DNA of 59,611 nucleotides from an uncultured Candidatus Woesearchaeota archaeon (GCA_902529885.1 CABZYC010000002.1:1-59611); one strand, 5' to 3'. Counted from the first letter of the stretch, positions 44,806 to 59,601 are shown. Numbers and translations are program-made. The notes: a model not told the origin generated them from the letters alone.

Positions 44806-44822
44806 ATGTTGTAATAAATAAA
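44806..44822 (-). promoter_or_regulatory. A/T-rich TATA-like element upstream of 43708-44796
   Basis: The minus strand reads gcctTTTTATTTATTacaacatctatattacATG. This lies in a 38-nt gap, one of the larger intergenic gaps in the array. Confidence 0.3.
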
Positions 44823-44834
44823 AAGGCTTTCGGT

Positions 44835-45827: not shown

Positions 45828-46840
45828 CCGTTACACGTAGGAATTATGCTATAATCCTCATTCCCAACAATACATTTATTCCAAGCACACCCTTCCCCAG
45901 GAGTCTTACCACTTGTATACCCTTTAGGTGTATGGCGGGGAAAATCATTAGTACCCACATATGAGCCAAAATCATCCTCAAACATTTCATCAATTGCATC
46001 AGGATGAAATCCACAATGATCATAGCTTTCTGCAGAAGTTGGACTATCATATGCAGGTATTATACAGACATATCCTTTTTTGGGACTATAAATCCAGTCA
46101 CCACTGCCAGTATCCCAAAAATCACCTAGTGCGCCCACTTCTAGTTTATAAGGTTCTTCCCCATCAAGTATACCGTCCACCACCATATAATCTTCATCCT
46201 TGTCGCTCCCTGAATTTAAAATATAAGTCCATTGATTAGTCTCATCATTATGCGTCCACCCTTTCCAATCTTGGTAAGTCATATCTTCACCTAGATCTAG
46301 TTGTTCCCAATACCAATTATGAAAGTTTTCTGCATATTCATCACCGTGACTATCAGTACCACCAACAGAACATAACACTAATCCCGGAATATTAAAAGTA
46401 TCTTTATGTTGCTGACCAATTAATGTTTGTATCCTCACCCCTGACTCAAAAGTAGTTGATGCCTCAGATTCAATAAACTTGATTGTTAATAATTCCTCAG
46501 TTAAACCAGACGGGTTTGGTAACCTATACATACAAGGTGTGTCATCACCATATCTGTATCCACCACTATATTCTCTATCCCTTACATGAGATAATGTTTT
46601 GTTTAAATCGTCTAAATACTTTCTTAGATCCCCAGATATTTTTGTGCTTGAAAGAGCTAAATTGGTGTATTGCCTTTGTGTTTCGGATAAAGTCTGATTC
46701 ACATTTCCTACAACATCCATGATACTATGTTCACCCTCACTCATAGTGTCACCAACAAAACCCTTTATTGTAAGGCCAGTTACACTACAAAAAATTAGTG
46801 ATACTAAAATTAACCAAAGTCCGGCGGCACCACGTCTCAT
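45824..46840 (-). CDS. class III signal peptide (prepilin-like) protein, 338 aa, Trp/Asp-rich
   Basis: N-terminus MRRG|AAGLWLILVSLIFCSVTGL. ATGA overlap with the upstream mini-ORF. Confidence 0.55.
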   Translation of the reverse strand: MRRGAAGLWLILVSLIFCSVTGLTIKGFVGDTMSEGEHSIMDVVGNVNQTLSETQRQYTNLALSSTKISGDLRKYLDDLNKTLSHVRDREYSGGYRYGDDTPCMYRLPNPSGLTEELLTIKFIESEASTTFESGVRIQTLIGQQHKDTFNIPGLVLCSVGGTDSHGDEYAENFHNWYWEQLDLGEDMTYQDWKGWTHNDETNQWTYILNSGSDKDEDYMVVDGILDGEEPYKLEVGALGDFWDTGSGDWIYSPKKGYVCIIPAYDSPTSAESYDHCGFHPDAIDEMFEDDFGSYVGTNDFPRHTPKGYTSGKTPGEGCAWNKCIVGNEDYSIIPTCNG

Positions 46841-46971
46841 CCAACAAGCGTCCTCTGGGTTAGATCACCCATCCCATTATGGAATTTATATAATAATCCT
46901 ACGCCTACAAAAACAAAAAATAATACTATTAAAAGAACCACAATGTACCAAAAAACTTCACCACGTTTCAT
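46837..46971 (-). CDS. 44-aa mini prepilin-like ORF (not in ORF track)
   Basis: Hand translation: MKRG|EVFWYIVVLLIVLFFVFVGVGLLYKFHNGMGDLTQRTLVG. The start overlaps the upstream stop (TAATG) and the stop overlaps the next start (ATGA). Confidence 0.5.
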   Translation of the reverse strand: MKRGEVFWYIVVLLIVLFFVFVGVGLLYKFHNGMGDLTQRTLVG

Positions 46972-47084
46972 TATATTATTGCTTCCTTTATTCGGTTCAA
47001 AAATAAAATACCAAAAACAATGATTGCAATTATCAATAATAAGTATGCAACCAATGTCATACCTGGCATTTCACCTTTCTTCAT
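46971..47084 (-). CDS. 37-aa mini prepilin-like ORF (not in ORF track)
   Basis: Hand translation: MKKG|EMPGMTLVAYLLLIIAIIVFGILFLNRIKEAII. TAATG overlaps at both ends. Confidence 0.5.
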   Translation of the reverse strand: MKKGEMPGMTLVAYLLLIIAIIVFGILFLNRIKEAII

Positions 47085-47335
47085 TAATTAGCCTCAATAC
47101 CTAAACAACATAACTGGCCCGTTCCACATTCAAAAGAGGATACTACCGATCCATTCAGAACTTTACATGCTTCTTTACTAGCTTTACATTCGCCCCCAGC
47201 AACTTCGCAACCACTAATACCTTGTTCCAAAACCGTTGTTTTACCTGTGAACATAAGTAGGAGGACCGCTAGGACCACTAAAGCTATCACCGCTCCAATA
47301 ATGATCCAAAAAACGTTTGCTTGTCCTTTTTCCAT
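47084..47335 (-). CDS. class III signal peptide (prepilin-like) protein, 83 aa, Cys-rich C-terminus
   Basis: N-terminus MEKG|QANVFWIIIGAVIALVVLAVLLLMF. C-terminus: CEVAGGECKASKEACKVLNGSVVSSFECGTGQLCC. Confidence 0.6.
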   Translation of the reverse strand: MEKGQANVFWIIIGAVIALVVLAVLLLMFTGKTTVLEQGISGCEVAGGECKASKEACKVLNGSVVSSFECGTGQLCCLGIEAN

Positions 47336-47343
47336 CTATCTAC

Positions 47344-47685
47344 CTAATCCCAATTACAACCGTAACTTTCACAGTTCGCTTCTGAATCTCTACCATCGTT
47401 ACATTCATCTGCACGATCGTCAATAAACTCTAACGCTTCCAACTGTTCACTGTCTTCACCGTCACCCCATAAATTGTAGAACTGTTGTTCATCTGCTAAA
47501 CCAGGATGACATTTCCCAAACATGATTGATAATGCTTGATACCGTGCACCTGCCTCTTTTGGTACTGTATCATCGAATGACCCTAACCTACCAATAAAAA
47601 TAGCAGTTAATACTACTAAAACAATTAATGCTAACGCCGCAATAATAATTACATTTAACGACATCCCTTGCGCTCTTTTTACCAT
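47344..47685 (-). CDS. class III signal peptide (prepilin-like) protein, 113 aa (start taken at MVKRAQG)
   Basis: N-terminus MVKRA|QGMSLNVIIIAALALIVLVVLTAIFI. The ORF-track start at 47721 adds 12 residues. Confidence 0.55.
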   Translation of the reverse strand: MVKRAQGMSLNVIIIAALALIVLVVLTAIFIGRLGSFDDTVPKEAGARYQALSIMFGKCHPGLADEQQFYNLWGDGEDSEQLEALEFIDDRADECNDGRDSEANCESYGCNWD

Positions 47686-47739
47686 AATTTCACCATCTAT
47701 TAATGTAAAAAATGGAAACAACGTATTTAAAATTTGTTG

Positions 47740-48249
47740 TTAATCACATATAATTAACATTGTTTGCGCTAATAAGTTATTACCTTCACCTAGATTTAGG
47801 CTAAACATTCCGCTACTATCATAATCCCTACTACGCATACAATCTTTACTTTTTATTTGGTAAAACAATTCTGGGTCACTACCCACACTTGTTTTGTACA
47901 CACGAAGTTCGTAATGTTTCCCCCATTGTAACACAGTCTCGTCCAACATTTTACTTGATTTATCTACAAACAACTCACATGCGTCTAGCTCACTATCACA
48001 AGTGTTACTGTCACCACCCGCCATTATCAAACAGTCTTCCAATATTTGTTCACCCATACTCATTGCCTTAGTCCTACACTCCACTTCAGTGTTAAGTATA
48101 GCGCTCATGGTACTGTAAGCTAACCCTTTACGTACAAACACACTCTTATCTGTCTCAGAATCAATTGCAAACTTTGCAAAAAATAAAAAGCCAATACTAA
48201 TCATTATCACAATTATCACCATCCCAATTATTTCTTGTTGACCCCTCAT
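47740..48249 (-). CDS. class III signal peptide (prepilin-like) protein, 169 aa
   Basis: N-terminus MRG|QQEIIGMVIIVIMISIGFLFF. ATGA overlap with the upstream gene. Confidence 0.6.
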   Translation of the reverse strand: MRGQQEIIGMVIIVIMISIGFLFFAKFAIDSETDKSVFVRKGLAYSTMSAILNTEVECRTKAMSMGEQILEDCLIMAGGDSNTCDSELDACELFVDKSSKMLDETVLQWGKHYELRVYKTSVGSDPELFYQIKSKDCMRSRDYDSSGMFSLNLGEGNNLLAQTMLIICD

Positions 48250-48815
48250 GAATATGCCTCCACATGAATATATCCATACCCAAACTCGCCGTACACAGTC
48301 TGGTTACTACTATTAAGCCCAAGGTTGTTCCGTAAGGTTATCACAAAAAATGTTGGTTCTTTATCTGCAGGTACTTTCTCACCATTCTCCAAAGTTACAG
48401 TTTTTACCTGTTCATACACAGTCCAATTACGTTTTTCAGGATAAATTTGGTGAACATAAATTCCGCTGTACCCAAACATGTCAAAATAATAGTCTTGTTT
48501 ATGACTATCAATAAACTGTTCAATACCTCTCAATTTTTGTATATCCATACAATTGTCTACTGATTCCGATTCACCGTTACTACAATATAACTCAGATAAA
48601 AATAAAGCAGTTAAACTAATATCTATTGCTTGCTGAGCAAGCATCTCTGTTTCTTGTTCTTGCAAACTGATTTGTTGATATTTAAAAAAAAATATTATAC
48701 CGAACACTACTAAAATGAAAAATATGAACATGGTCACTAAACTTTCCATCATTTGCATTTGAGCTTTAGTATACACGCGTGCACCCCGCTGCCGAAAGTT
48801 CTTGGTTAAGATCAT
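48246..48815 (-). CDS. probable class III signal peptide protein, about 189 aa (start uncertain)
   Basis: The ORF-track start at 48860 is TTG. ATG at 48815 gives MILTKNFRQRGARVYTKA|QMQMMESLVTMFIFFILVVFGIIFFF. ATG at 48758 would avoid the overlap with the upstream gene but loses the basic region. Confidence 0.45.
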   Translation of the reverse strand: MILTKNFRQRGARVYTKAQMQMMESLVTMFIFFILVVFGIIFFFKYQQISLQEQETEMLAQQAIDISLTALFLSELYCSNGESESVDNCMDIQKLRGIEQFIDSHKQDYYFDMFGYSGIYVHQIYPEKRNWTVYEQVKTVTLENGEKVPADKEPTFFVITLRNNLGLNSSNQTVYGEFGYGYIHVEAYS

Positions 48816-49869
48816 ATATTTTTGTTGCTTGGTCTCGTAAAGTGAATTGACCACACGCAAGATAATTAGTGGTACACTGTTGCGCAGCCAAACTTAATGT
48901 CCGATACATAGTAGAATCATCTTTCAAAATTGATAAACAATCTGCATATTCTTCTCTACTTTCATACGCGCCAACCATTAAGTCAACTTTATCTTGTAAC
49001 ACTTCGGACACTAATGACAACCGTTTAAACGCCTTCATCATGTTACACCTAAACGTTTCAGCGTTGCCAGCAAACAAAGCTGCGTAAGCAACTGCATCAC
49101 GTTCAGAACCCGTGCTTACTAAGGGTGTCCATTCACCTTCATTACCACCTTCAACGTACCAAGCATCCCCGCGTTTCACATAGTATAACACTGCGCCATC
49201 ATGAAAGCGTACGGCGCTCACTTGATCATTGTTTAGTACAGAAAGTTCTAATGGCACCGCTTCTTCGTGTTCTATAAAAGGTATCCCGGACTCTAACAAA
49301 ATGAGCCTGACGTGATACTCACCATTATATTCTACTTCCCCTACATTATCTATGAATTCAACGTTTAACCCATTCGTACTGTTCATAAGTTCAATGTAAA
49401 AATCGCTTGACCCATCACTAACAACATAATATTTAGTATTTTCACTCGTAACAAACAAAAAGTCCATCACTTTAAACGGTAATTTGTAAGGCATACTCCA
49501 TAAGATCATTTTGTTCGTCTTAACATTTAATGGGGCGACTACTACAGATAATGGACTTTCAATACTTGCAGAAGATCCACTAATACCATAATAACTAAAC
49601 ACATCATATATCCCGCCGGCTTCATCAAGCTCACAACGAAATTGAAACACTTCGTTCCTTACACCTGATGTGTCTAGAAAATTTTTAGTATTTTCTGCAA
49701 CCGTAGACCCAGTGAAAATATTTTCAAGGATGTTCATCACTTTATAATTCAAACGTTTCTCAGACATTTCTTTTTGCTGAGTTATTATCATTATAAAAAA
49801 AAGTAAAATGGCCGCACCAGCCACCATGACATAAATCCAATTAAATTGTACTGTTACCTGGCCTTTCAT
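48766..49869 (-). CDS. class III signal peptide (prepilin-like) protein, 367 aa
   Basis: N-terminus MKG|QVTVQFNWIYVMVAGAAILLFFIMII. ATGA overlap with the upstream gene. Confidence 0.6.
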   Translation of the reverse strand: MKGQVTVQFNWIYVMVAGAAILLFFIMIITQQKEMSEKRLNYKVMNILENIFTGSTVAENTKNFLDTSGVRNEVFQFRCELDEAGGIYDVFSYYGISGSSASIESPLSVVVAPLNVKTNKMILWSMPYKLPFKVMDFLFVTSENTKYYVVSDGSSDFYIELMNSTNGLNVEFIDNVGEVEYNGEYHVRLILLESGIPFIEHEEAVPLELSVLNNDQVSAVRFHDGAVLYYVKRGDAWYVEGGNEGEWTPLVSTGSERDAVAYAALFAGNAETFRCNMMKAFKRLSLVSEVLQDKVDLMVGAYESREEYADCLSILKDDSTMYRTLSLAAQQCTTNYLACGQFTLRDQATKIYDLNQELSAAGCTRVY

Positions 49870-50363
49870 TCGTATACCAATTGACTTAAATATGCTGCGT
49901 CACCACGACCTTCTAACCTCAAAGTAAATTTGCCATTCTCTAAAGGTAAACATAAATATCCATCGTCCATACGAAGTTTGTACGTTTTAATTGCTGCAGC
50001 TGCAGGTGGGTCCAAAAACACGTTTTGGTCAGCAGCGCCCCATGACCCAGCAGTTTCCCATGCGTCACAAGCTATCGCACTTTTAGCACATAATGACTCG
50101 TCATACGTTGCATCCATATCTACAAAACAAATTTCTGTGTATTTCACAGGTAAACTGAAATCTAATGTTCGCGCTGCACCATAATCACTGTAAATCTTCT
50201 TGACATTATTCTCAAGGTTAGTTTTAAACTGCATGAACTCCACCATTTCTCCCTTCTCCATCAAATCGTTCACCATGTTAACACCAAATATAAGTATAAA
50301 TGCAAAACTTATACCTGCAATCATGTAAATGAATACTTGTTGTACCGCCATCCCTCGTTTCAT
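49866..50363 (-). CDS. class III signal peptide (prepilin-like) protein, 165 aa
   Basis: N-terminus MKRG|MAVQQVFIYMIAGISFAFILIFGV. ATGA overlap with the giant gene's stop. Confidence 0.6.
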   Translation of the reverse strand: MKRGMAVQQVFIYMIAGISFAFILIFGVNMVNDLMEKGEMVEFMQFKTNLENNVKKIYSDYGAARTLDFSLPVKYTEICFVDMDATYDESLCAKSAIACDAWETAGSWGAADQNVFLDPPAAAAIKTYKLRMDDGYLCLPLENGKFTLRLEGRGDAAYLSQLVYE

Positions 50364-53300
50364 TTTGATAACTTCCTTAATTTTTTGAATACTTCGTTCG
50401 CATCTTTTGCGTTAACTTCATTCTTTTTATGTGCACTACTCAAATTCTCAAGTTTATCAAACAAATTTGTATCAACCTGTTTTTTAATTTCAGGTTTGTT
50501 TGCTTCAAAATGTTTTGTTACTTCCGCTACTTTCTTGTGCACTGGAAGATCTTCGTGCGCAGTCCGCATTAAGTGTTCAACACTTTTTTTAGCAGTGAAA
50601 GACGAAAATAATTTTGATCGAGAACTTTTTTTAGTACGCTTACTAAAGTTTTCTTCTAAGCTGCGTAGTCGGTCACCAACACTCACTTTCTTTTGTGTTA
50701 ATGGTTGAGCTTTTGACTGTGAAACATTCGGTTTCATAGATTTTGGATTGGCCATTTTATTTTGTGGGGAGACTTGCCTTGACTGAACCTGTTTGTTGTA
50801 CAAAGGTTTTGAACCAAACAGTGCTCTTCCTTGAGGCATCTGAGTATAAAAGTAGCTTAAGAATCCACTTGAACCACCCATCATCAATAAAGATAATAAT
50901 AATACAATTATTGCACCAAGATTATCGTTCGGTGAAGAAGATGATGATGAAGGGATATCCAATACTTCTGTTTCGACCACAGGTTCAGTGAATGTGTCAT
51001 CAATACAAGGGTCTTTACCTGCTTGGTACTCTTCCAGATTGTTTAAACCGTCACTATCAAAATCTTCGTCAGTATCAGACACACCGTTCATATCAGTATC
51101 TAAAGCCTCGTGGTCCAATTCACAGCCAGGTGCAGTACTAAGTTTTTCCCAGCTGTCTGGTAACCCGTCACCATCAGTATCAGTTGTATCAGATGTTTCT
51201 TGACGAGCACAACCAGTACTATCAACCTGTGCACCTGCACTTGTTTCAGTACAAATGTCACATTGGTCAGCTACACCATCACCGTCAACATCTTCAAACT
51301 CAATCTTCTGGTTACCGGTAACATTGTTCCCTTTAGTGTCAGAAGCAAAATAACATAACCATTGGTTCTGTTCTACAATTATGCCCGATTGTTTATCTTG
51401 GGTAGGGTCACAATCAGCAATAGAAGTACTAGTCCCATACAAAATATCGTCGCAGCCAGCGTCATCACTACATTCAAGGCTTATTACTGAGCCCATACAC
51501 TGTTGAGCTTGAGTCACAACTTGAATATCTGGGCCAAAAATGTCCATTGCACAATCTTCGCTGCTACCGTCACCAGCAACAAAACCGTCTGTATAAACAT
51601 ATTCCCCTACGTTACCTGCAGAATCAACAGCTAACACTTCAATGTAATATGGTGTCCCATTAACAAGAGTCACACCTTCAATGTCTGCAGTAAGATTTAA
51701 TGTTCCTGACGAAATTAAGATTGTATCAGTAGCATTTTCAAGTCCAAGGTACTCCCGTAACTGGCTTGAACCGGGACTGTTTCCTTGGTAAAGGTTATAC
51801 TCATAATGGCTTATGTTTGGTTCGTTAACAGTTACAGATAATGGGACAGTATGTAATCCACAACTTTCCTCACCATCATTCGTGCTTGTTATAGACGGAG
51901 GTGTTTGGTCAACATAAAATTCGATTGTATCATCATCATAGTTCTCTGATATTAAACAAGATACGATATAATGGTACGGATCATTACTCTCAACAAGGTC
52001 ACCAATGTATTTTGTGTGCACTGTGTTCCCTGAAACAGTGAAATCTTCACCGTCAACTTCACATAAAGCGTTCTTACTAGTTTGGACTTCTAACGTTACT
52101 TCTTTCCCATCAATTATGCCAGTTGGACTCATTGATTCAATGTAACCCACTACTGCATAATCAACAGAGAAATCTATTGTTTCTTGATTACTTACTAACC
52201 CCGCACCATTCTCACACTGTACCGCTAATGTGAAGTCAGCAGTAGCACCGTCAACATCAAAACTGTATTCACTAACGTGTGTTGTGTTCAAAATGTTGTC
52301 GTCATACCCTTCAAAACTATAACGCATATTTTCGTAATCGTAACCGTCATTAGTTACATCGTCAAACTTACAAACAGTTTTATCGTCTGTGGTAACAGTT
52401 AATTGTACCGTCCGCATGTCCGTCACTAATTCTGGTTCCACGTTAGTTGTAAGAATAATTGGTTTTGAAGGATCGTACTCCAAATTCATTTTTTGGGCAG
52501 GGCCAACTTCACCAAGCGGATCTTTACATTTTACATACAACGTTTTTTTACCACCATCTTCGTCATAAGCAGCTAACACGTCCCCAGGGAAATCTTCGTA
52601 CAAATAATAATTAGTTTTATCTTCGTACAAATCAAACTTTTTATATTCTGGTTGAGAATCAAAATCAAACTCAGGATTGAAATCGTAGGTACAAGCTTCA
52701 GTGTTAAGTTTACTCATTATGACCCAATCAAAAACAGGGTCAGAACTTACCCCGTACTGTTCACCACCATAATAATAAAGTTCAGGTAAAACCATGTTTA
52801 TACCAAATCCTTCAACAATAATCTCTCCACATTGTACGTCTACAAGGTTTTCCACTGTATCAGTTGAATAATAACACATCCTCGTTGTGTTTGTAATAGT
52901 GACAGTACCTGAATACACTTCATATTTTTCGTCACTCCGACTCTCGCACCCTTCACCAAAACAGTAAAACGTCTCTGCACAATCAAAACCTTCTGCAGAA
53001 CATTCAAAGTCTATATTCACTGATTCAATCCAGTATAATTCCCATTCATCCCCAACCGGTAATTCTTCACGGTCACCCTCCGTCAAAATTGCTTGCGTGT
53101 CAGGCGCAGTAAAGTCTACTACGAAATCAAAATAATCTTCCATTACTTCATCTGTATAACTCTCAACACATACAGCTTTCAAAAAGCCAGCATAGTCACC
53201 CTCATAAAAATTAGGTATGCTACTTGTACTATGATTCTTATTTTCGTCATCACTCGTATAAAACTCAGCCAATTTTGTCCATGCAACACCGTCATTAGTC

Positions 53301-56300
53301 TCATAGAGTTCACAACTTGCACCCACTGCAGTCGATATTTGAAACACAATGTCTGTCTCGTGCACTGCACCGCCAAATTCAGGGTATACAAAAGAGATAT
53401 CTTGTTCTAAATCGAACACTATTGTGTCTGACACATTGTTAATGTTACCATGGTCGTCAGTACACGAAGCAGTCAAATTATAAATTACGCCTGTCAACGA
53501 TGTGAAATAGTGTTCTTTATCCTCATCACGAGAGAATGATACTGTCTGAGTGTCACCTTCAGGCAACTTCTGTTCTAAAATAAAGTCACACTCAGCAGGT
53601 TCAGAAGGTTCTGTTAAATATACAGTTAACTCACTAATATCTGCGTCCGTATCACTATAATAATTCAATACAAAATCTGGGTTTTGTGTATCAACAAAAA
53701 CGTAAGTTGTTTGTAAATCTTCACGATTATAATATTTGTCTTCTGCTAAATAATATAATGTGTATGTGTCACCAGCCTCTATCACAGACTGTAAATATGT
53801 GCTATTAACCAAATTAATTTCTGCAGACTCAGAATTGATTATCCCAGAGTATTCATAATAATCAAAATTGTCTTCAGTACAACCACTAGATTGTGATGAG
53901 GTTAAACAGTAGTATAAGCCGGTCACCGGACTTATATCGTCTACAGAAGACAAGTTTATTGAAGGAAAACTGTTGCTTACAACTGCAAAACTTCCTGTGT
54001 TAATCTCAGTTATTGGCCCCTCATTATCTATCTTACACGTTTCATATTCTCCTGCAGAAAATTCGTCACAATCATTATAAGAATCGTAGTTCCCATCTTT
54101 ATAACATTCACCGTGCGTTTCGTTCGCTGCGTACCAATAACATGTTCCCCAACTACACTTGTCATTACTATTGAAAATGTCCATGTCAATACTAGACACA
54201 GGTACACCCCCAATACATTCAAGTTCGCTTGTATACTCATAACAATTTGCGTCTTGTGAAGGTGAATCACCACAATCGTTGCAAACACTATTATTAGTAT
54301 CACTAAAACACGATCCTAATTGATCACACACATCAGGAGTACAATACATGTTCTCAAATAATTGGCTGTCGGGACCACACAAATAACATTGGTCATCTTC
54401 AACATAATCTTGTGGTGCGCAATATCCTGTACCAAACTCTTCAGTGGTAGGATACAATACAGGGGAGTCATAATACGTATTATCACTCTGGTTCACCCAA
54501 AGGCAACCTTGCCCTAAACAATTATCAATCTCGCAAGAGTCTTGGGACCTATAATCAAAACAAGTTTGTACTTCATTACAATCAATACAATCGTCCACAA
54601 TTGTGTCACTATAATCATAATAACAAAAGTTCAAGTATCCAGTCTCGTTATCATAATCCCCATAACATGTTGACTCTTCATAATATAAACCAAACGGTGT
54701 AGCTAACATTGAGTCAACATTACACATTCCTGCATCTTTACAAATTGCGTTCGTTTCACCAATAATGGTACAATAATAATCTGTTGAATCTGTGTCAAGC
54801 TCAGAACAATCGTTACTTAACACCACATAATTTTCATCGTCACACGCATAGATCAATTTTCGTTCATTATCATCCGTAGTACTATCGTCAATACCACAAA
54901 AAAATTGTGACTCTTGAATATTATCACATTCCTTATCACCCGTTAACACAGTGATAGAAATTTGTTCTGTACTAATCCTTGTTTGAGGTGCACCAGCATC
55001 ATCCGCAGGACCGTCTGTATAGATTGCTTCCAATGCATAAGTGTACGAAGTTTCCCATTCAACATCATAATCAATATAGGTTCCAATGTACGGGCTTATA
55101 ACTCCTAACTTCACACCGTCTTTATACAAATTATACCCGTCAACTTCAGGACAAGGTTTTTCCCAAGACAAAAAAACTGCTTCCATTCCACGTTCTACTG
55201 ATGATTCAAAGACTTCAACAGGTTTTGTAGCGTTAGGTTGCCCATAACTACATTCGCCAATGTAACGTGAAAGGATAATGTCATAATCAAGTTCAGTAAT
55301 ACCTTCATCAACATTCAATGTTAAATCGTCAACTGAATAATCCTCAAATATAGCACTTATATTGTATGCTCCTGGTTCAAGATAGATTTCAAATGTACCG
55401 TCTGGGTACTCACTACTTTCTTTAAAAATATCGTTCACATAAATTTTAGCGCCGAATACAGGGTCAAGCACACTTAAATCACCCATTGTGTCCAAATAAG
55501 TTACGCCTTTCACTCCTTGAAACTCAATCTCTTCTAGAATAAAAGTGTCATAAAAATCCGAGTCTAATGAAAGGTCATATTCAAGGACAGTGTGATAACT
55601 TTTACTCAACGTTAAAACGTGTTCGCCAGTGTTCACATCAGTAAATTCGAAAAACCCGTCAGTATCAGTACTAACCTGGACGGTATCATTACCTTCTAAT
55701 GTTACTGCAACTTGCGATAATGGTTCACCATCAATGTCAGTTATTAAACCACTCACTGTATGTTCACCTAAGCTCCGGACAACAACATATTCTAATTCTA
55801 ATGTTTCGCCATCAAGAACGGTTATAGTATCACGGTAAGTACTATACTCTTCAGTTGTGATGGTTAATGTATAAGTGTTAGGTAATACATCATTAAACTC
55901 AAAATAGCCTGTGTCTGTAACCTCGCTACCATCATTAAGCATAATAGTAAATTCTACATCTTCACCAGACTCATTTTGGACAGTACCAGTTATTGTGGAA
56001 GTCTCAACTTCATACCCACAAATGTCTACACTACAGTATGCTGCATCAACATTAATGGTATAACTCATGCTTGATTCCTCAAGACCTTGCTGTTCTGTAC
56101 GTGACACACAATCGTTCCTAAAATCTACTAATGAACAAAAATCGCCAGTCCGACAACAACCAGGTGTACACCATTGTTCATACATATCATCTGTAACTTC
56201 AACGCCGCCTTCATACTCACACAATAAATAAGATGTATAATCGCAAGATACACTACATAATACTTCTTCACATTCATCAATTGTATCACAACTTATACCT

Positions 56301-56494
56301 GGACTAAAATAAAGGTCTAGATCGTCACAACCGTTCGTATCACAATCAGCTTGCGCATCACTTTCTAAAACGTTATCTGTACACAATAAACTTGTATCAG
56401 ATAAAGGGTAAGTATAACAACCTTCAAGCTCAGCTTGCACTAAAGGAATTAAACAAAACAGTATACACATTCCTATTAATAGTCTCACGTACAC
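50360..56494 (-). CDS. giant (2044 aa) Cys-rich multi-domain surface protein with C-terminal TM anchor and Lys-rich cytoplasmic tail
   Basis: GTG start with a Sec-type signal MYVRLLIGMCILFCLIPLVQA|ELEGCY. Domains are described in the findings. TM LGAIIVLLLSLLMMGGSSGFLSYFY (about nt 50846-50923), then a 161-aa K-rich tail. It is a single uninterrupted ORF with only short antisense shadows. Confidence 0.85.
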   Translation of the reverse strand: MYVRLLIGMCILFCLIPLVQAELEGCYTYPLSDTSLLCTDNVLESDAQADCDTNGCDDLDLYFSPGISCDTIDECEEVLCSVSCDYTSYLLCEYEGGVEVTDDMYEQWCTPGCCRTGDFCSLVDFRNDCVSRTEQQGLEESSMSYTINVDAAYCSVDICGYEVETSTITGTVQNESGEDVEFTIMLNDGSEVTDTGYFEFNDVLPNTYTLTITTEEYSTYRDTITVLDGETLELEYVVVRSLGEHTVSGLITDIDGEPLSQVAVTLEGNDTVQVSTDTDGFFEFTDVNTGEHVLTLSKSYHTVLEYDLSLDSDFYDTFILEEIEFQGVKGVTYLDTMGDLSVLDPVFGAKIYVNDIFKESSEYPDGTFEIYLEPGAYNISAIFEDYSVDDLTLNVDEGITELDYDIILSRYIGECSYGQPNATKPVEVFESSVERGMEAVFLSWEKPCPEVDGYNLYKDGVKLGVISPYIGTYIDYDVEWETSYTYALEAIYTDGPADDAGAPQTRISTEQISITVLTGDKECDNIQESQFFCGIDDSTTDDNERKLIYACDDENYVVLSNDCSELDTDSTDYYCTIIGETNAICKDAGMCNVDSMLATPFGLYYEESTCYGDYDNETGYLNFCYYDYSDTIVDDCIDCNEVQTCFDYRSQDSCEIDNCLGQGCLWVNQSDNTYYDSPVLYPTTEEFGTGYCAPQDYVEDDQCYLCGPDSQLFENMYCTPDVCDQLGSCFSDTNNSVCNDCGDSPSQDANCYEYTSELECIGGVPVSSIDMDIFNSNDKCSWGTCYWYAANETHGECYKDGNYDSYNDCDEFSAGEYETCKIDNEGPITEINTGSFAVVSNSFPSINLSSVDDISPVTGLYYCLTSSQSSGCTEDNFDYYEYSGIINSESAEINLVNSTYLQSVIEAGDTYTLYYLAEDKYYNREDLQTTYVFVDTQNPDFVLNYYSDTDADISELTVYLTEPSEPAECDFILEQKLPEGDTQTVSFSRDEDKEHYFTSLTGVIYNLTASCTDDHGNINNVSDTIVFDLEQDISFVYPEFGGAVHETDIVFQISTAVGASCELYETNDGVAWTKLAEFYTSDDENKNHSTSSIPNFYEGDYAGFLKAVCVESYTDEVMEDYFDFVVDFTAPDTQAILTEGDREELPVGDEWELYWIESVNIDFECSAEGFDCAETFYCFGEGCESRSDEKYEVYSGTVTITNTTRMCYYSTDTVENLVDVQCGEIIVEGFGINMVLPELYYYGGEQYGVSSDPVFDWVIMSKLNTEACTYDFNPEFDFDSQPEYKKFDLYEDKTNYYLYEDFPGDVLAAYDEDGGKKTLYVKCKDPLGEVGPAQKMNLEYDPSKPIILTTNVEPELVTDMRTVQLTVTTDDKTVCKFDDVTNDGYDYENMRYSFEGYDDNILNTTHVSEYSFDVDGATADFTLAVQCENGAGLVSNQETIDFSVDYAVVGYIESMSPTGIIDGKEVTLEVQTSKNALCEVDGEDFTVSGNTVHTKYIGDLVESNDPYHYIVSCLISENYDDDTIEFYVDQTPPSITSTNDGEESCGLHTVPLSVTVNEPNISHYEYNLYQGNSPGSSQLREYLGLENATDTILISSGTLNLTADIEGVTLVNGTPYYIEVLAVDSAGNVGEYVYTDGFVAGDGSSEDCAMDIFGPDIQVVTQAQQCMGSVISLECSDDAGCDDILYGTSTSIADCDPTQDKQSGIIVEQNQWLCYFASDTKGNNVTGNQKIEFEDVDGDGVADQCDICTETSAGAQVDSTGCARQETSDTTDTDGDGLPDSWEKLSTAPGCELDHEALDTDMNGVSDTDEDFDSDGLNNLEEYQAGKDPCIDDTFTEPVVETEVLDIPSSSSSSPNDNLGAIIVLLLSLLMMGGSSGFLSYFYTQMPQGRALFGSKPLYNKQVQSRQVSPQNKMANPKSMKPNVSQSKAQPLTQKKVSVGDRLRSLEENFSKRTKKSSRSKLFSSFTAKKSVEHLMRTAHEDLPVHKKVAEVTKHFEANKPEIKKQVDTNLFDKLENLSSAHKKNEVNAKDANEVFKKLRKLSK

Positions 56495-56510: not shown

Positions 56511-56520
56511 TGTTTATAAA
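56511..56520 (-). promoter_or_regulatory. TATA-box-like element (TTTATAAACA) 17-26 nt upstream of the giant gene start
   Basis: The minus strand reads aatcTTTATAAACAttaaattcttattaatgtGTG. It lies in the 28-nt gap after the preceding stop. Confidence 0.4.
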
Positions 56521-56522
56521 GA

Positions 56523-57446
56523 TTAGTTCCGTTTACGCCGCAATATTGCACGTAACTCTTCTGTTCGACGGATACGTTCAATTGCATTTAACTGGTCTCG
56601 CGTCTTAATCTGTGGTTTAGGTGGACGATGACCTGCCCGTGCAATTGTTGGTTTAAGAGGTTTAGCTAAAGGTTGTGATGGGCGAACATAGCTTCTTCGC
56701 TTTTTAGGTTGTGGTGCCCGATATTTTTTAGGGTTAACTTTCATCGTTACTGCTTTTGAATTGTACACACCTTTTGGTTGTTGTGACCCTTTCAATGCCA
56801 GATATAAAAAAAGTAGTAATGCGCCTAACGCGACAGGAACGTAAGGAAAAGTTACAGGGTCACCTTCAATACTATTAAGTTTGGTTATTGTATTGTTACT
56901 TACATTACTTTCTTCAGAAATGCTTGAGTTCACAATATAATTGATTAAAGGGTCACCTGTAGCCACGTAATCAATTTCGTCTTTCTGTACAATCTCATAA
57001 TCTTTTGCAGTGTTACAATCACATTCACCCTGACTATAAGAATATAATTCTGTACCTTCAGTTTGCGCTTGTATAATACAATCAAACTCTGTACTTAATT
57101 CTGTGCAAGTCTCTTCTGTTTGACAACAGCCAGTTTTACAACTATCTTTTGTAGCAATACCGTAATCGCACATTCCACGAACGTTGAGGGTACAAGTGTC
57201 TTTACAAACAACTAATTGACATTCATCTAATATTGTACAAGAATCACTGTATAAGTATACGTCATCTAACACTTTTCCTGTATACTCCGCTTCAGTTAAA
57301 GCTTCATTCAACGTTAATTCACTACAATAAGCCGCACTTTCTTTGTCAACGTAGCATCCAAGGCCGCTAACTAGCGGAACCACAAACACCATCAATACAA
57401 ACACCGTCAAGGGTACCTTTACCATCCACATCACACCAGTTTCCAT
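56523..57446 (-). CDS. 307-aa Cys-rich type I membrane protein sharing the giant protein's N-terminal module
   Basis: Signal MVKVPLTVFVLMVFVVPLVSG|LGCY (alternative ATGs at 57431 and 57425). Cys module at residues about 30-145, TM at about 200-220, and a Pro/Lys/Arg-rich tail. Confidence 0.7.
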   Translation of the reverse strand: METGVMWMVKVPLTVFVLMVFVVPLVSGLGCYVDKESAAYCSELTLNEALTEAEYTGKVLDDVYLYSDSCTILDECQLVVCKDTCTLNVRGMCDYGIATKDSCKTGCCQTEETCTELSTEFDCIIQAQTEGTELYSYSQGECDCNTAKDYEIVQKDEIDYVATGDPLINYIVNSSISEESNVSNNTITKLNSIEGDPVTFPYVPVALGALLLFLYLALKGSQQPKGVYNSKAVTMKVNPKKYRAPQPKKRRSYVRPSQPLAKPLKPTIARAGHRPPKPQIKTRDQLNAIERIRRTEELRAILRRKRN

Positions 57447-59601
57447 TTTTACATTCGTTCACAAAGATCCCTACCTCAGACAAAGTGCCGACTTCAGCAT
57501 TTTGTAACACTGAATACCACGGTTGACTATGACTAAACAATTCTTTGTCTGCTGAGATGACAGGATTTTCTATTGCTTGGTCACAACCATACGTTCCCCC
57601 ACATAAATATTTCGTGCCTTCACTATCATATTGGATACTAAATTGTTCTTGTCCAGCACACACGCCTGGCACACCACAATCTATGTCAGCACATAAAGGA
57701 ATATCTCTGTCTGAACGTTGATATTCAGTAGTCTTATCGGAACCACACACATTACCTCTTGACTGATCACAAAACGCTTTTTCTACTACTTGCACTTTAT
57801 TTTGACATAAAATGTCTGATTCATAACATACTGTACTAACATCAGCCAATGTATTCGTGTCTTGTATGCAACACGCAGTTGTAGTGTTGAACGGACTATT
57901 ATCACGTGTTTCATGCCCCCCTGAATCGTTCACATAAATTTCATGGTATGGGAAAGGAAAAGGATGCCTGGAAACTTCTTGATACGCACATTCAACAATG
58001 TCATAAGAAAGGCCTCTCGATAAATCTAATGATTCACCACACAATGACTCACTATAACCTAACTCTATTGAACCAATCTCACCAACCAAAGTGGGCCTAA
58101 AAATAGTATCTACAAAAAAATCATACATGTTTTCTTCATAATTACTAAGGTCATCACAATCAACTGATGTTTTGTAAGGTAGCACAAAACAAAAAGTGTC
58201 CGTACCCCAACTAAACGACCTAGTTTCAACCTCGTCATCACTAGTACTTTCATAACCTTCTGTATACAATACGTCCATAGAACTTAATGTACCATCATCA
58301 CTAGATACAGTAACTAAATAGGGTTGTTCAATGCTTAACATAGACGTCTCTTGACCCCTCACATCTGTTACAGTAACATCAAAATCGGTCGTCTCACCAA
58401 CCTTAATACGTATTTTTTGTGAGTCGTAACCATGATCATTAAATGAGGTTAAGATGAGCTCATAATCACCATCTTCAACACCTTCTATCTCTTGGTTGAT
58501 GAAGGGGTATTCGGAGAATGTGTCAGGTATATCTAAATTTAAACTATTACTATCATCCAATAATTCAAATGAAACATCATCTTGGTCCGGGTCGAACGAG
58601 GATGCATTAATAGTCAAATTTGTGTAAGACCTACTATCTGGCAAAATTAAATAGTCATAACCTAAACAAGCTGCTTGGCTAACATACTCTAACGCAGGAG
58701 GTCGGTTAGTAATGGCTACACGGTACACTAAGTTCTCATTTTCATCGCGGTGTATTTGGTTCGTTGAATATTCGTACACACTATAAGCACCTTGGTCACT
58801 TATTTCTAATGTGGAACCCAAAATTGAATAGGATGATACACCTTGCAATGTTTCTTCAGTCCAATTATAATGTACATCACGAGATTCGTAGTACAAGGGA
58901 TTCTTGATGGCATTATTAAAAAAACTGTACAAATTGCTAGGGTAAAAAAGATCAAAATCTTGTATGTCAAACATTTCTTCACCATCAAACATAAGAGATA
59001 ACGGGTACATTGCAGTAATTATAATACCACCACTTTCTATTTTTAAAGATAAAGTTAAATCGCCACTTTCAAACGCCCCAGCATAACCAGGTTGGGTTTC
59101 AACCTGTGTCTCAAAACAATCTAACACTTTCGTTTTTACATATTGTTCAAGGTCATCCTCAACATAAGATAACCGTAATTTTTGGCGTGCACCAAAATTG
59201 GCGGTGTCAGTGTTAACCCATTGACAATATGCCGGGGCGTTTGACGAACTTTCACAAGGATAACTTGCAGGCTCTTCATTCTCTTCATAAGTAATCCCTA
59301 AATATACTTGATCACCTTCAAACATTACACCATTAACACCATCTTGGAACTCTAAATCATTGTAAGGATAAAATAGTCGGCCACCTTTGCTTAATTCAAT
59401 TAATGCTTTGTCTAATTCGTCCAATAAACAATCTTGAATGAATAATCGTGCACCCTCTGAACGAAAAAGTTTACTATGTGTTTCATCAAGCGAAGTTTGC
59501 AATTGGTTATCCTGAACATTGTTTACTAATAACAACATAAAACCTACCCCTGCCATTAAAACTATCCCAAGTATAATGAAAACAGTTATCTGTCCTCTCA
59601 T
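57367..59601 (-). CDS. class III signal peptide (prepilin-like) large protein, 744 aa, Cys-rich C-terminal third
   Basis: N-terminus MRG|QITVFIILGIVLMAGVGFMLLLV. It is the first gene of the array seen in the window, with only 10 nt of upstream sequence available. Confidence 0.65.
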   Translation of the reverse strand: MRGQITVFIILGIVLMAGVGFMLLLVNNVQDNQLQTSLDETHSKLFRSEGARLFIQDCLLDELDKALIELSKGGRLFYPYNDLEFQDGVNGVMFEGDQVYLGITYEENEEPASYPCESSSNAPAYCQWVNTDTANFGARQKLRLSYVEDDLEQYVKTKVLDCFETQVETQPGYAGAFESGDLTLSLKIESGGIIITAMYPLSLMFDGEEMFDIQDFDLFYPSNLYSFFNNAIKNPLYYESRDVHYNWTEETLQGVSSYSILGSTLEISDQGAYSVYEYSTNQIHRDENENLVYRVAITNRPPALEYVSQAACLGYDYLILPDSRSYTNLTINASSFDPDQDDVSFELLDDSNSLNLDIPDTFSEYPFINQEIEGVEDGDYELILTSFNDHGYDSQKIRIKVGETTDFDVTVTDVRGQETSMLSIEQPYLVTVSSDDGTLSSMDVLYTEGYESTSDDEVETRSFSWGTDTFCFVLPYKTSVDCDDLSNYEENMYDFFVDTIFRPTLVGEIGSIELGYSESLCGESLDLSRGLSYDIVECAYQEVSRHPFPFPYHEIYVNDSGGHETRDNSPFNTTTACCIQDTNTLADVSTVCYESDILCQNKVQVVEKAFCDQSRGNVCGSDKTTEYQRSDRDIPLCADIDCGVPGVCAGQEQFSIQYDSEGTKYLCGGTYGCDQAIENPVISADKELFSHSQPWYSVLQNAEVGTLSEVGIFVNECKNGNWCDVDGKGTLDGVCIDGVCGSAS

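What the first reader, a model, noticed from the sequence alone, without database searches (positions are those of the whole stretch)
50360..56494. 2044-aa mosaic surface protein: Cys-rich modules, CarboxypepD_reg-like and Fn3-like domains, five two-Cys beta-sandwich repeats, TSP3-like Ca sites, TM anchor and a 161-aa Lys-rich tail
**Domains read from the translation**
- Sec-type signal ending VQA|ELEG.
- N-terminal Cys-rich module (nt about 56005-56430).
- Three segments resembling carboxypeptidase-regulatory/transthyretin-like beta-sandwiches (ITGTVQNESGEDV...GYFEFNDVLPNTYTL; VSGLITDIDGEPL...DGFFEFTDVNTGEHVL; GAKIYVND...DGTFEIYLEPGAYNI; nt about 55320-56000).
- An Fn3-like unit (VFLSWEKPCPEVDGYNLYKDG...YTYALEAIY; nt about 54990-55235).
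- A roughly 300-aa region extremely dense in Cys (nt about 54015-54940).
- At least five tandem modules of about 105-125 aa. Each carries a first Cys in the context [ST]xxx[AV]xC[EKTD][LYFV] and a second in a hydrophobic-x-V/A-x-C context, and each ends near D.T.P (nt about 51890-53650).
- Asp-rich repeats of the thrombospondin type 3 / DxDxDG type (DVDGDGVADQCD, DTDGDGLPDSWEK, DTDMNGVSDTDEDFDSDGLNNLEEYQAGKDPC; nt about 51000-51300).
- A Ser-rich linker, one TM helix, then a 161-aa tail rich in K, S and Q.

**Inference**
- This is an extracellular, Ca-binding, disulfide-stabilised adhesin or S-layer-like stalk with an unusually long basic cytoplasmic tail.
- One gene takes up about 10 percent of this 59.6-kb window.
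Basis: partly seen in the sequence, partly recalled or inferred. Interest (0 to 1): 0.85.

Follow-up and report, generated by a model that had tools for sequence, protein, structure and literature searches.

The report
Giant anchored surface stalk, DPANN archaeon
This is a real, conserved 2044-residue cell-surface protein of an uncultured Woesearchaeota-type (DPANN) archaeon, a long disulfide-rich stalk anchored in the membrane and encoded inside an operon of pilin-like genes, and it is a plausible but untested candidate for the unknown attachment machinery of these tiny symbionts.

Summary

**What is shown**
- The protein has a Sec-type signal and an N-terminal 16-Cys head.
- Three CarboxypepD_reg sandwiches and an Fn3-like unit follow.
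- Next is a 315-aa module with 30 invariant Cys whose fold is unresolved.
- Nine further beta-sandwich domains follow, not five.
- The C-terminal end has three invariant DxDxDG loops, one TM helix and a basic 162-aa tail.
- It is not a chimera: collinear orthologues of about 2000-2200 aa occur in about 58-70 Woesearchaeota/Nanoarchaeota MAGs. Domain lengths are near constant, and 57 of 58 have an even Cys count.

- The gene sits in a conserved operon of about 18 genes with class-III (type IV pilin-like) N-termini.
- The 307-aa gene upstream is a short paralogue with the same head and, at family level, the same cytoplasmic tail.
- Among 1.84 billion representative proteins, the head occurs only in these two size classes.

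**Interpretation**
- It is most likely a fixed-length, membrane-anchored stalk of a lineage-specific pilin-associated surface apparatus.
- Adhesion or host contact is favoured; an S-layer-like scaffold is the main rival.
- Function is inferred, not shown.
- It is a new variant of a kind already noted in other archaeal type IV pilus loci.

The parts
50360..56494 (-). Whole ORF, 2044 aa plus stop (BIG). A type I membrane protein.
   Evidence: Full-length orthologues.
56432..56494 (-). Sec-type signal peptide, aa 1-21 (MYVRLLIGMCILFCLIPLVQA|ELEG). The start codon is ambiguous: GTG 56494, GTG 56488 or ATG 56470.
   Evidence: Hydropathy. Orthologue N-termini end in A-x-A-like sites before an invariant GCY. 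None has Q after [KR][GA].
56000..56431 (-). N-terminal 'head', aa 22-165: a 16-Cys alpha/beta module specific to this lineage.
   Evidence: AF2 pLDDT 84-91. No PDB sequence match at E<=10. Only 187 carriers among 1.84e9 proteins, in two size classes.
55265..55999 (-). Three CarboxypepD_reg / prealbumin-like beta-sandwiches, aa 166-243, 244-330 and 331-410.
   Evidence: PF13620 at 3.6e-15. NOMO2 at 1.7e-13. hhalign 95-99% between the units. BFVD CPD-domain hit with TMt 0.73.
54950..55264 (-). Fn3-like beta-sandwich, aa 411-515, with the invariant motif W.KPCPEV.
   Evidence: AF2 pLDDT about 90. Weak Fn3 profile hits. fn3 hit in 6 of 19 orthologues, position not determined.
54005..54949 (-). 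Cys-dense module, aa 516-830: 30 essentially invariant Cys, fold unresolved.
   Evidence: AF2 pLDDT about 30 beyond aa about 590. No PDB or Pfam match. No CxxCH motif.
51893..54004 (-). Seven Ig-like beta-sandwich domains: M0, M1, M2, Mx, M3, M4, M5 (aa 837-1526). Each has one conserved Cys pair; Mx has six Cys.
   Evidence: AF2 model B at pLDDT about 80-90. M2, M4 and M5 related at 74-81% by hhalign. Big_3_3 and Big_13 hits in orthologues.
51572..51892 (-). Second Fn3-like beta-sandwich, aa 1535-1641.
   Evidence: AF2. ChiA1 Fn3 and titin profile hits.
51302..51571 (-). Cys-containing beta-sandwich, aa about 1656-1731, with 5 Cys.
   Evidence: AF2. Local similarity to Mx through the CYY.TD..GN motif.
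50993..51301 (-). TSP3-type region, aa 1732-1834: three DxDxDG loops with invariant Asp (aa 1735, 1772, 1811) and 5 Cys.
   Evidence: TSP3_bac at 0.011, sub-threshold, and 1.3e-4 in one orthologue. No regular secondary structure in AF2.
50849..50992 (-). Variable Ser-rich linker (aa 1835-1856) and a single TM helix (aa about 1857-1882).
50363..50848 (-). Conserved basic cytoplasmic tail, aa 1883-2044. Helical, by inference from weak coiled-coil matches; no structure was predicted for it.
   Evidence: Net about +20. Conserved in length and charge. Homologous to the short-paralogue family tail, hhalign 99.5%. Only weak coiled-coil PDB hits.
56523..57446 (-). u307: short paralogue with signal, the same Cys head, about 60-aa spacer, TM helix and basic tail.
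   Evidence: BLASTP 3e-9 with all Cys aligned. Family-level tail homology. Adjacent in 34 of 70 loci.
57367..59601 (-). u744: large protein with a class-III-type N-terminus (MRG|QITVFIILG...) and a Cys-rich C-terminus.
   Evidence: Conserved upstream in 49 of 70 loci.
47084..50363 (-). Conserved block of pilin-like genes directly downstream: d165, d367, d204, d169, d125 and an 83-aa gene. All have [KR][GA]|Q plus a hydrophobic-helix N-terminus.
   Evidence: The five larger genes are found in the same order in 47-63 of 70 loci. The 83-aa gene was not tested for synteny.
39556..47084 (-). Further pilin-like genes of the same block: d338, d330/d362, d267/d378, d132, d155, d110, d333 and two tiny ORFs.
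   Evidence: d330 and d362 are conserved in 32-37 loci, the others in fewer.
56513..56520 (-). TATA-like TTTATAAA, 3 nt after the u307 stop and about 22-26 nt upstream of the GTG starts. A possible own, leaderless promoter.
   Evidence: Read directly from the sequence. Inference only.

Best explanation
BIG is a type I membrane protein of a Woesearchaeota-type DPANN archaeon.

**Architecture**
- It is exported by Sec and held by one C-terminal TM helix.
- The ectodomain is about 1835 aa, very acidic, and carries about 39 disulfides.
- The ectodomain forms a fixed-length stalk that contains:
  - 13 beta-sandwich domains (3 CarboxypepD_reg, 2 Fn3-like, 8 Ig-like);
  - one unresolved 30-Cys module;
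  - a membrane-proximal base with three DxDxDG (TSP3-type, probably Ca2+-binding) loops.
- The stalk carries a lineage-specific 16-Cys head at its far end, tens of nm from the membrane if extended.
- A conserved basic cytoplasmic tail of about 150 aa, probably helical, links it to an unknown partner inside the cell.

**Context**
- It is the long member of a long/short paralogue pair. The short member has the same head and, at family level, the same tail.
- It is co-transcribed with a conserved set of pilin-like proteins and, in relatives, with a secreted Cys-rich giant.

**Most likely function (inferred)**
- It is a structural and adhesive component of a pilin-associated cell-surface apparatus used for contact with other cells or surfaces.

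**Shown versus inferred**
- Shown: the gene, the domain folds, topology features, conservation, synteny and paralogy.
- Inferred: disulfide state, Ca binding, extension length, cleavage of the pilin-like N-termini, and the function.
For: **Gene and topology**
- The ORF and its composition are confirmed.
- The ectodomain is acidic and the tail basic, with only two hydrophobic segments.

**Folds**
- CarboxypepD_reg is supported.
- AF2 gives the head at pLDDT 84-91, the CPD units at about 80 and Fn3a at about 90.
- AF2 gives nine beta-sandwiches plus an irregular TSP3 region at mean pLDDT 81.5.
- Foldseek matches arrays of Ig, Fn3 and prealbumin domains: Gram-positive pilins, SlaB, titin, the GhpA grappling hook and phage fibres.

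**Conservation**
- There are 20 full-length homologues by protein search and 70 genomic loci.
- Every domain is present at near-constant length in 58 orthologues.
- Cys retention is about 100% in most modules and 0.93 in the head.
- Ectodomain Cys count is even in 57 of 58 orthologues, with mode 78.
- The DxDxDG aspartates are invariant.

**Operon**
- The gene order is conserved in 32-63 of 70 loci.
- Of 17 class-III-like N-termini in the window, 15 lie in one block around BIG, and three more tiny ones sit in a gap.
- The consensus of four downstream families is 'KKGQ' followed by a hydrophobic helix.

**Paralogue pair**
- The heads align at E=3e-9.
- The head is restricted to proteins of about 2000-2260 aa and about 300-440 aa among 1.84e9 representatives.
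- Family-level tails are homologous at 99.5%.
- The tail is found in no other locus protein.

**Published precedent for the kind**
- PMC4858521 describes archaeal T4P loci that encode three things together:
  - a large, C-terminally TM-anchored, Cys-containing 'S-layer-like' protein;
  - a large signal-peptide 'adhesin or minor pilin';
  - Cys-containing minor pilins.
Against: - There are no expression, localisation or binding data.
- No Pfam, NCBIfam or PDB family supports an adhesive function for the head.
- The pilin-like reading of the neighbours rests on an N-terminal motif only. No Pfam pilin model hits 136 family members.
- No pilus ATPase, platform protein or prepilin peptidase lies in the window or in L001.
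- The rigidly constant domain number is atypical for adhesins and fits a structural spacer at least as well.
- N-glycosylation sequons are not enriched: 20 observed against 15.6 +/- 3.6 expected.
- The 30-Cys module is structurally unresolved.
- Signal and TM assignments are by rule, not by a dedicated predictor.
Confidence: 0.45

Rival explanations
1. BIG is an S-layer or cell-envelope scaffold. In this reading it is the membrane-anchored stalk or subunit of the regular surface layer, comparable in role to SlaB or tetrabrachion, and its fixed length sets the envelope spacing. The neighbouring class-III proteins would be envelope-associated components rather than a pilus.
For: - It has a Sec signal, a C-terminal TM anchor and an acidic ectodomain.
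- Domain number and length are strictly constant, with one copy per MAG locus.
- SlaB (8qox_B) appears among the fold and profile hits.
- PMC4858521 labels analogous proteins in T4P loci 'S-layer-like'.
Against: - The SlaB match is only at the level of a generic beta-sandwich.
- AF2 shows no coiled-coil stalk in the ectodomain.
- Sequons are not enriched.
- Conservation is fairly high and uniform (pairwise identity 0.32-0.51), whereas S-layer proteins usually diverge fast.
- A 13-domain stalk would be much longer than usual S-layer spacings if extended.
- The short paralogue with the same head is not explained.
Confidence: 0.25
2. BIG is a PilY1-like pilus-associated adhesin. It would be delivered to the tip or base of a type IV-like filament built from the co-encoded minor pilins, possibly after proteolytic release from its TM anchor.
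For: - The operon logic resembles the bacterial fimU-pilVWX-pilY1-pilE operon, in which a large Sec-exported protein with Ca-site motifs lies next to five or more conserved pilin-like genes.
- PMC4858521 proposes PilY-like large proteins in archaeal T4P loci.
Against: - There is no PilY1/PilC beta-propeller domain by Pfam or AF2.
- A conserved TM helix and a conserved cytoplasmic tail argue that the protein stays in the membrane.
- No orthologue has a class-III signal.
Confidence: 0.07
3. BIG is a stand-alone generic surface adhesin whose neighbourhood is coincidental, and the downstream genes are merely N-terminally anchored membrane proteins.
For: - No pilin family model matches the neighbours.
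- No assembly ATPase or platform protein is nearby.
Against: - Gene order is conserved across orthologues that are only 30-45% identical.
- The shared head and tail with the adjacent short paralogue argue for functional linkage.
- The [KR][GA]Q motif is concentrated in this block: 15 of the 17 motif hits fall inside it, and only 2 hits lie in the rest of the window's 63 ORFs.
Confidence: 0.1
4. The ORF is an assembly chimera or a spurious ORF.
For: None found.
Against: - Collinear full-length orthologues occur in independent assemblies from many studies.
- GC content is uniform across the gene.
Confidence: 0.01

Closest known systems
Large C-terminally TM-anchored, Cys-containing 'S-layer-like' proteins (e.g. 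arCOG05471) encoded in archaeal type IV pilus loci of Thermoproteales (Makarova, Koonin & Albers 2016, PMC4858521)
   Same: - The locus logic is the same.
  - One large protein has a signal peptide and a single C-terminal TM helix.
  - A second large protein is secreted. In relatives this is the 1.5-1.9 kaa giant with no TM.
  - Many small Cys-containing pilin-like proteins accompany them.
   Different: - Sequence homology to arCOG05471 could not be tested here.
- This locus has no ATPase or TadC gene nearby.
- The 16-Cys head, the 30-Cys module, the conserved basic tail and the long/short paralogue pair are not described there.
- The lineage is DPANN, not TACK.
Archaeal S-layer stalk proteins SlaB (Sulfolobus; PDB 8qox_B) and tetrabrachion
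   Same: - They have a Sec signal, extracellular beta-sandwich domains and a C-terminal TM anchor.
- SlaB ranks 4th in the Foldseek search and scores E 0.015 in the profile search.
   Different: - The match is limited to a generic sandwich domain.
- BIG has no ectodomain coiled coil.
- BIG is 4-5 times longer than SlaB.
- BIG has a 162-aa cytoplasmic tail.
- Lattice formation is unknown.
Bacterial fibrillar adhesins (stalk of repeated Ig/Fn3/SdrD_B/CarboxypepD_reg domains plus a distal binding domain; Monzon et al. 2021, PMC8286594)
   Same: - Both have a long array of beta-sandwich stalk domains with a distinct distal module and a cell anchor.
- SdrD_B, SpaA, Big_13 and Big_3_3 hits occur in orthologues.
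- Foldseek hits include Gram-positive pilins, TIE and GhpA.
   Different: - The stalk domains are mostly non-identical.
- Their number is fixed across orthologues rather than variable.
- The anchor is a TM helix plus a cytoplasmic tail, not an LPXTG, T1SS or autotransporter anchor.
- The head has no known adhesive-domain homology.
PilY1/PilC type IV pilus tip adhesins with their minor-pilin operons
   Same: - A large Sec-exported protein with Ca-site motifs is encoded beside a conserved set of minor-pilin-like genes.
   Different: - BIG has no PilY1 propeller domain.
- BIG keeps a TM anchor and a cytoplasmic tail.
- The organism is archaeal.
NOMO / carboxypeptidase-regulatory-domain arrays and bacterial TSP3 repeats
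   Same: - The best sequence-level matches are NOMO2 at 1.7e-13 for aa 176-311 and PF13620.
- The DTDGDGLPDSWE motif matches the TSP3_bac motif.
   Different: - These matches cover only about 13% of the protein.
- The rest has no relatives outside the orthologous family.

Membership tests
CarboxypepD_reg domain (PF13620) containing protein | HMM score above the Pfam gathering threshold. | tested here: met
   - 56.5 bits against 32.3, in two stretches.
- 19 of 19 orthologues hit the model.
- The third unit is related to the other two at about 95% by hhalign.
Fibronectin type III (PF00041) | HMM match to the Fn3 model. | tested here: inconclusive
   - The window protein has no fn3 hit at E<=1.
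- Six of 19 orthologues hit at E<=0.01, best 3.8e-4, at a position I did not determine.
- PDB profile hits are weak, 0.015-0.76.
Fibronectin type III (PF00041) | Seven-strand beta-sandwich fold. | tested here: met
   - AF2 gives beta-sandwiches at aa 411-515 (pLDDT about 90) and aa 1535-1641.
- Foldseek matches Fn3 arrays.
Bacterial TSP3 repeat (PF18884) / thrombospondin type 3 | HMM score above the gathering threshold. | tested here: not met
   - TSP3_bac scores 16 bits against 25, and TSP_3 scores 10.7 against 25.
- One orthologue reaches 1.3e-4.
Bacterial TSP3 repeat (PF18884) / thrombospondin type 3 | DxDxDG-type acidic Ca2+ loops. | tested here: met
   - Three motifs lie at aa 1735, 1772 and 1811.
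- Their Asp residues are invariant in 58 sequences.
- Ca binding itself was not tested.
Archaeal S-layer protein with TM stalk (SlaB / tetrabrachion type) | Sec signal plus a single C-terminal TM anchor. | tested here: met
   by rule-based reading.
Archaeal S-layer protein with TM stalk (SlaB / tetrabrachion type) | Extracellular coiled-coil stalk. | tested here: not met
   AF2 shows an all-beta ectodomain with only short helices.
Archaeal S-layer protein with TM stalk (SlaB / tetrabrachion type) | Forms or anchors a 2D lattice and is highly abundant. | not testable with these tools
   This needs proteomics or cryo-ET.
Fibrillar adhesin | Stalk of tandem beta-sandwich domains plus a cell anchor. 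| tested here: met
Fibrillar adhesin | A recognised adhesive (binding) domain. | tested here: not met
   The head has no Pfam, NCBIfam or PDB match.
PilY1/PilC-type pilus adhesin | C-terminal PilY1 beta-propeller domain. | tested here: not met
   There is no Pfam hit, and no propeller appears in AF2.
Type IV pilin / class III signal peptide protein (BIG itself) | A [KR][GA]|x cleavage motif followed by a retained hydrophobic helix of about 20 aa. | tested here: not met
   - The window protein lacks the motif.
- Orthologues show an n/h/c pattern ending in A-x-A before GCY, and none has Q at +1.
Type IV pilin-like proteins (the neighbours) | Class-III-type N-terminus. | tested here: met
   - 15 contiguous genes and 3 tiny ones carry it.
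- The family consensus is KKGQ plus a hydrophobic helix.
Type IV pilin-like proteins (the neighbours) | Match to a curated pilin family model. | tested here: not met
   -.
- The only hint is 0.031 to a prepilin N-terminal model, for d125.
PGF-CTERM / archaeosortase-anchored surface protein | A PGF motif plus TM helix at the extreme C-terminus. | tested here: not met
   The TM helix is followed by a 162-aa tail, and there is no PGF motif.
Multihaem cytochrome (alternative use of Cys) | CxxCH motifs. | tested here: not met
   None is present.

The most novel reading that the evidence does not exclude
The operon may encode a previously undescribed surface organelle specific to Woesearchaeales. 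In relatives the operon order is secreted Cys-rich giant, u744, short head/tail protein, BIG, then about 15-18 pilin-like genes.

- In this reading, two membrane-spanning proteins present the same disulfide-knotted head at two fixed heights.
- They would couple it, through a shared basic cytoplasmic tail, to the cell interior.
- This would be the molecular basis of host or partner attachment in a major uncultured DPANN lineage.
Probability: 0.3. Interest if true: 0.75.

Novelty: new variant of a known kind. Interest (0 to 1): 0.5.

Why it matters
- DPANN archaea are thought to live attached to other cells.
- Cryo-ET has revealed elaborate contact structures in cultivated relatives, but their genes are unknown (PMC11420986, PMC11329633).
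- No Woesearchaeota representative is cultivated, to my knowledge.
- A conserved dark-matter operon of 20 kb or more offers concrete, testable candidate genes for that attachment or envelope machinery. Its notable features are:
  - a fixed-architecture 2000-aa anchored stalk;
  - a short paralogue with the same head and tail;
  - a full set of pilin-like proteins.
- It also defines three protein modules with no family assignment: the 16-Cys head, the 30-Cys module and the basic tail.
- If the locus only encodes the S-layer, it is still useful, because no envelope protein of this lineage was identified in the literature I searched.

Tried and rejected
- **Profile search with A1.**
  - It was swamped by generic CarboxypepD_reg proteins at 13% coverage or less and added only two family members.
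  - It does show that nothing outside the family shares the rest of the architecture.
- **Structure prediction with a 58-sequence alignment built from genomic loci.**
- **Family searches.**
  - Pfam and NCBIfam on 10 neighbours returned nothing significant; there were no Pfam hits at E<=0.01.
  - Pfam on five upstream giants from related loci returned nothing.
  - Pfam on 136 members of four downstream families returned no pilin model.
- **PDB sequence-profile searches.**
  - The head and the Cys-dense module gave no hit at E<=10.
  - The tail gave only weak coiled-coil noise.
- **Foldseek.**
  - Searches against PDB and BFVD gave only generic beta-sandwich arrays.
  - The head was never matched, and I could not search it alone.
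- **Sigma-70 promoter scan.**
  - It found no more sites than shuffled sequence and is irrelevant for an archaeon.
- **Readings considered and rejected.**
  - Multihaem cytochrome: no CxxCH.
  - PGF-CTERM anchoring.
  - A class-III signal on BIG itself.
  - Assembly chimera.
  - Viral or mobile origin: the synteny with housekeeping genes is chromosomal.
- **Literature.**
  - Five searches found no description of this family.
  - The large Woesearchaeota extracellular proteins discussed in PMC8204110 are lytic-transglycosylase proteins, which are a different thing.

Full report
**Observation.** The ORF 50360..56494 on the minus strand exists and has 2044 codons with a GTG start. In-frame alternative starts are GTG 56488 and ATG 56470, and the public gene call is 2036 aa. 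The window is a chromosomal piece of an archaeon. It carries an archaeal RNase P RNA at 135 bits and RadA, RPA, Topo VI, aRF1, PAN, SecDF and ribosomal proteins L3 and L4. GC content is uniform at about 0.33-0.41. There are 80 Cys, 78 of them after the signal. There are only two hydrophobic segments, aa 1-21 and about 1857-1882. The ectodomain carries about -8 net charge per 50 residues, and the C-terminal 162 residues are net about +20.

**Domains.**
- Pfam supports CarboxypepD_reg at 56.5 bits against a cut-off of 32.3.
- A family profile matches NOMO2 at 1.7e-13 over the same region.
- Slices of the family alignment show that the three proposed units are mutually homologous at 95-99%.
- AlphaFold2 on aa 22-830 with 21 sequences gave the following:
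  - an N-terminal 16-Cys alpha/beta head at pLDDT 84-91;
  - the three sandwiches at about 80;
  - an Fn3-like sandwich at about 90;
  - the 30-Cys region beyond about aa 590 unresolved, at pLDDT about 30.
- AlphaFold2 on aa 831-1850 gave a mean pLDDT of 81.5.
  - It shows nine consecutive beta-sandwich domains at aa 837-935, 942-1037, 1042-1126, 1132-1227, 1232-1340, 1347-1445, 1452-1526, 1535-1641 and 1656-1731.
  - An irregular stretch over aa 1732-1834 follows. It carries the three DxDxDG motifs, whose aspartates are invariant in 58 sequences.
- Only M2, M4 and M5 are detectably related by sequence.
- Across 19 orthologues, Pfam also reports SdrD_B (15 members), PEGA (14), SpaA (11), Big_3_3 (8), Big_13 (6), fn3 (6) and TSP3_bac (1).
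- Foldseek returns only generic arrays of Ig, Fn3 and prealbumin domains: Gram-positive pilins, TIE, SlaB, titin, the GhpA grappling hook, macroglobulins and phage fibre proteins.
- The head and the 30-Cys module have no PDB sequence relatives at E<=10.
- There is no CxxCH motif.

**Not a chimera: a conserved family.**
- A protein search found 18 homologues of 1998-2166 aa at 33-44% identity and 90-100% coverage.
- A scan of one genome per species found 70 loci in MAGs named Woesearchaeota, Nanoarchaeota or Nanoarchaeia. Nearly all match residues 1-2036. Some are mislabelled 'Methanosarcinales'.
- In 58 full-length orthologues, every domain is present at near-constant length.
  - Cys retention is about 100% in most modules, and 0.93 on average in the head.
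  - Pairwise identity per domain ranges from 0.32 (CPD units) to 0.51 (TSP3 region and TM helix).
- Ectodomain Cys count is even in 57 of 58 orthologues, with a mode of 78. This supports an all-disulfide state.
- Orthologue N-termini follow an n/h/c pattern ending in A-x-A-like sites just before an invariant GCY. None has Gln after [KR][GA]. The signal is therefore Sec-type and not class III.
- A profile search showed that only the CarboxypepD_reg region has relatives outside the family, at 13% coverage or less.

- Of the window's 63 non-overlapping ORFs, 17 have a [KR][GA] motif followed by a hydrophobic N-terminal stretch. Fifteen of these form one block at 39556-59610 around BIG.
- Three more tiny genes of the same type (83, 37 and 44 aa) lie in an apparent gap.
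- The consensus of four downstream families, over 136 sequences, is 'KKGQ' followed by a hydrophobic helix. From my own knowledge, this is the class-III (prepilin) signal type with Gln at +1 that is known from euryarchaeal pilins.
- No curated pilin model matches these families.
- The order u744, u307, BIG, d165, d367, d204, d169, d125 ... d330/d362 is conserved on the same strand in 32-63 of 70 loci. Many of the loci are cut by contig ends.
- In related loci the operon starts with a further protein of 1.5-1.9 kaa. It has a Sec signal, 46-74 Cys in the full-length copies, no TM helix and a conserved C-terminal FFWPQLTGKLRV motif. It has no Pfam match. It lies beyond the end of this window.
- No pilus ATPase, platform protein or peptidase is in the window or in L001.

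**A long/short paralogue pair.**
- The 307-aa gene immediately upstream (56523..57446) aligns to the BIG head with all Cys matched, at E=3e-9. It also has a TM helix and a basic tail.
- An exhaustive profile search of 1.84 billion representative proteins found only 187 carriers of this head. The head always sits right after the signal.
- The full-length carriers fall into two size classes, about 2000-2260 aa and about 300-440 aa. The remaining hits are mostly shorter and look like fragments.
- The cytoplasmic tails of the two families are homologous (hhalign 99.5%, E=7e-23). The window's own short copy has a shorter, more diverged tail (E 0.008 in the pairwise comparison).
- The tail occurs in no other protein of the loci.
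- All other BIG modules are unique to BIG.
- The tail has only weak resemblance to coiled-coil proteins.

**Interpretation.**
- Shown:
  - a conserved type I membrane protein with a very long, acidic, Cys-paired, all-beta ectodomain of fixed architecture;
  - a lineage-specific head at the distal end;
  - conserved acidic loops next to the membrane;
  - a conserved basic cytoplasmic tail;
  - a location inside a conserved pilin-like operon, next to a short paralogue.
- Inferred:
  - Thirteen sandwiches plus the other modules could span roughly 50-70 nm if extended.
  - The acidic loops bind Ca2+.
  - The neighbours are processed as prepilins.
- My preferred reading is a fixed-length stalk of a pilin-associated surface apparatus used for cell or surface contact.
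- The main rival is an S-layer-like envelope scaffold. It is favoured by the invariant length and by Makarova et al.'s label for analogous proteins. It is disfavoured by several points:
  - there is no ectodomain coiled coil;
  - sequons are not enriched (20 against 15.6 +/- 3.6);
  - the sequence is relatively well conserved;
  - the short paralogue is left unexplained.
- A PilY1-like tip adhesin is unlikely, because the TM helix and tail are conserved and there is no propeller domain.

**Comparison with what is known.**
- Makarova, Koonin and Albers (PMC4858521) described archaeal T4P loci, in Thermoproteales, that encode three things together:
  - a large C-terminally TM-anchored protein with conserved cysteines, called 'S-layer-like' (arCOG05471);
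  - a second large signal-peptide protein, called 'adhesin or minor pilin';
  - small Cys-containing minor pilins.
- PMC6393860 notes dark-matter T4P islands in DPANN.
- This locus is the same kind of arrangement in Woesearchaeota. It differs in having new, unassigned modules, a long/short pair sharing head and tail, and no assembly genes nearby.
- Homology to arCOG05471 could not be tested.
- I found no paper describing this family in five searches. The large Woesearchaeota extracellular proteins in PMC8204110 are lytic-transglycosylase proteins.
- Cryo-ET studies of cultivated DPANN show attachment organelles and nanotubes whose genes are unknown. That is why candidate loci like this one are useful.

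**Verdict.**
- It is a new variant of a known kind.
- Interest is moderate at 0.5. The finding is solid and offers a testable candidate locus, but large surface proteins and pilin-rich dark-matter islands are expected in DPANN genomes, and the function remains inferred.

Noticed in passing
window 46837-47335 (-): Three tiny genes (83, 37 and 44 aa) with MxKG + hydrophobic-helix N-termini lie in what looks like an intergenic gap. The 83-aa gene (MEKG|QANVFWIIIGAVIALVVLAVLLLMF..., with a Cys-rich C-terminus) and the 125-aa d125 are plausible fibre-forming pilins.
   Followed up: partly
window 41755-43459 (-): d378 and d267 are tandem paralogues with overlapping ORFs. They share an identical C-terminal ...VPGEMGGTDHDKQMAQFDDRN. 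Both have an internal [KR][GA]Q + hydrophobic motif, which suggests that d378 is mis-started or recently duplicated.
   Followed up: no
window 43708-45827 (-): d362 and d330 are paralogues that combine a class-III-type N-terminus with a long Gly/Ala-rich hydrophobic segment near the C-terminus. That is an unusual two-ended anchoring for a pilin-like protein. They are conserved in 32-37 of 70 loci.
   Followed up: partly
L009:540-6011, L045:2607-7361, L026:1148-6613, L044:358-5775, L001:553-5529 (beyond the window end at 59611): In related genomes the operon begins with another giant protein of 1.5-1.9 kaa. It has a Sec signal, 46-74 Cys in the full-length copies, no TM helix, a conserved extreme C-terminal FFWPQLTGKLRV motif and no Pfam match.
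   Followed up: partly
window 56513-56520 (-): A TATA-like TTTATAAA lies 3 nt after the stop of the 307-aa gene and about 22-26 nt upstream of the GTG starts of the big gene. This suggests an internal promoter and a leaderless transcript.
   Followed up: no
window 16993-17250 (-); 21347-21549 (-): An archaeal RNase P RNA (135 bits), and tRNA-Cys(GCA) and tRNA-Arg(TCT). These are the features that identify the window as archaeal.
   Followed up: yes
L061, L067, L056, L022, L068, L029: In a few MAGs the big gene is split into two adjacent ORFs. These are frameshifts or stops, either assembly errors or pseudogenisation.
   Followed up: no
record titles of L004, L006-L008, L010 and others: Many TPA MAGs that carry this Woesearchaeota/Nanoarchaeota-type operon are titled 'uncultured Methanosarcinales archaeon'. 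This is probably a taxonomic mislabel in the records.
   Followed up: no
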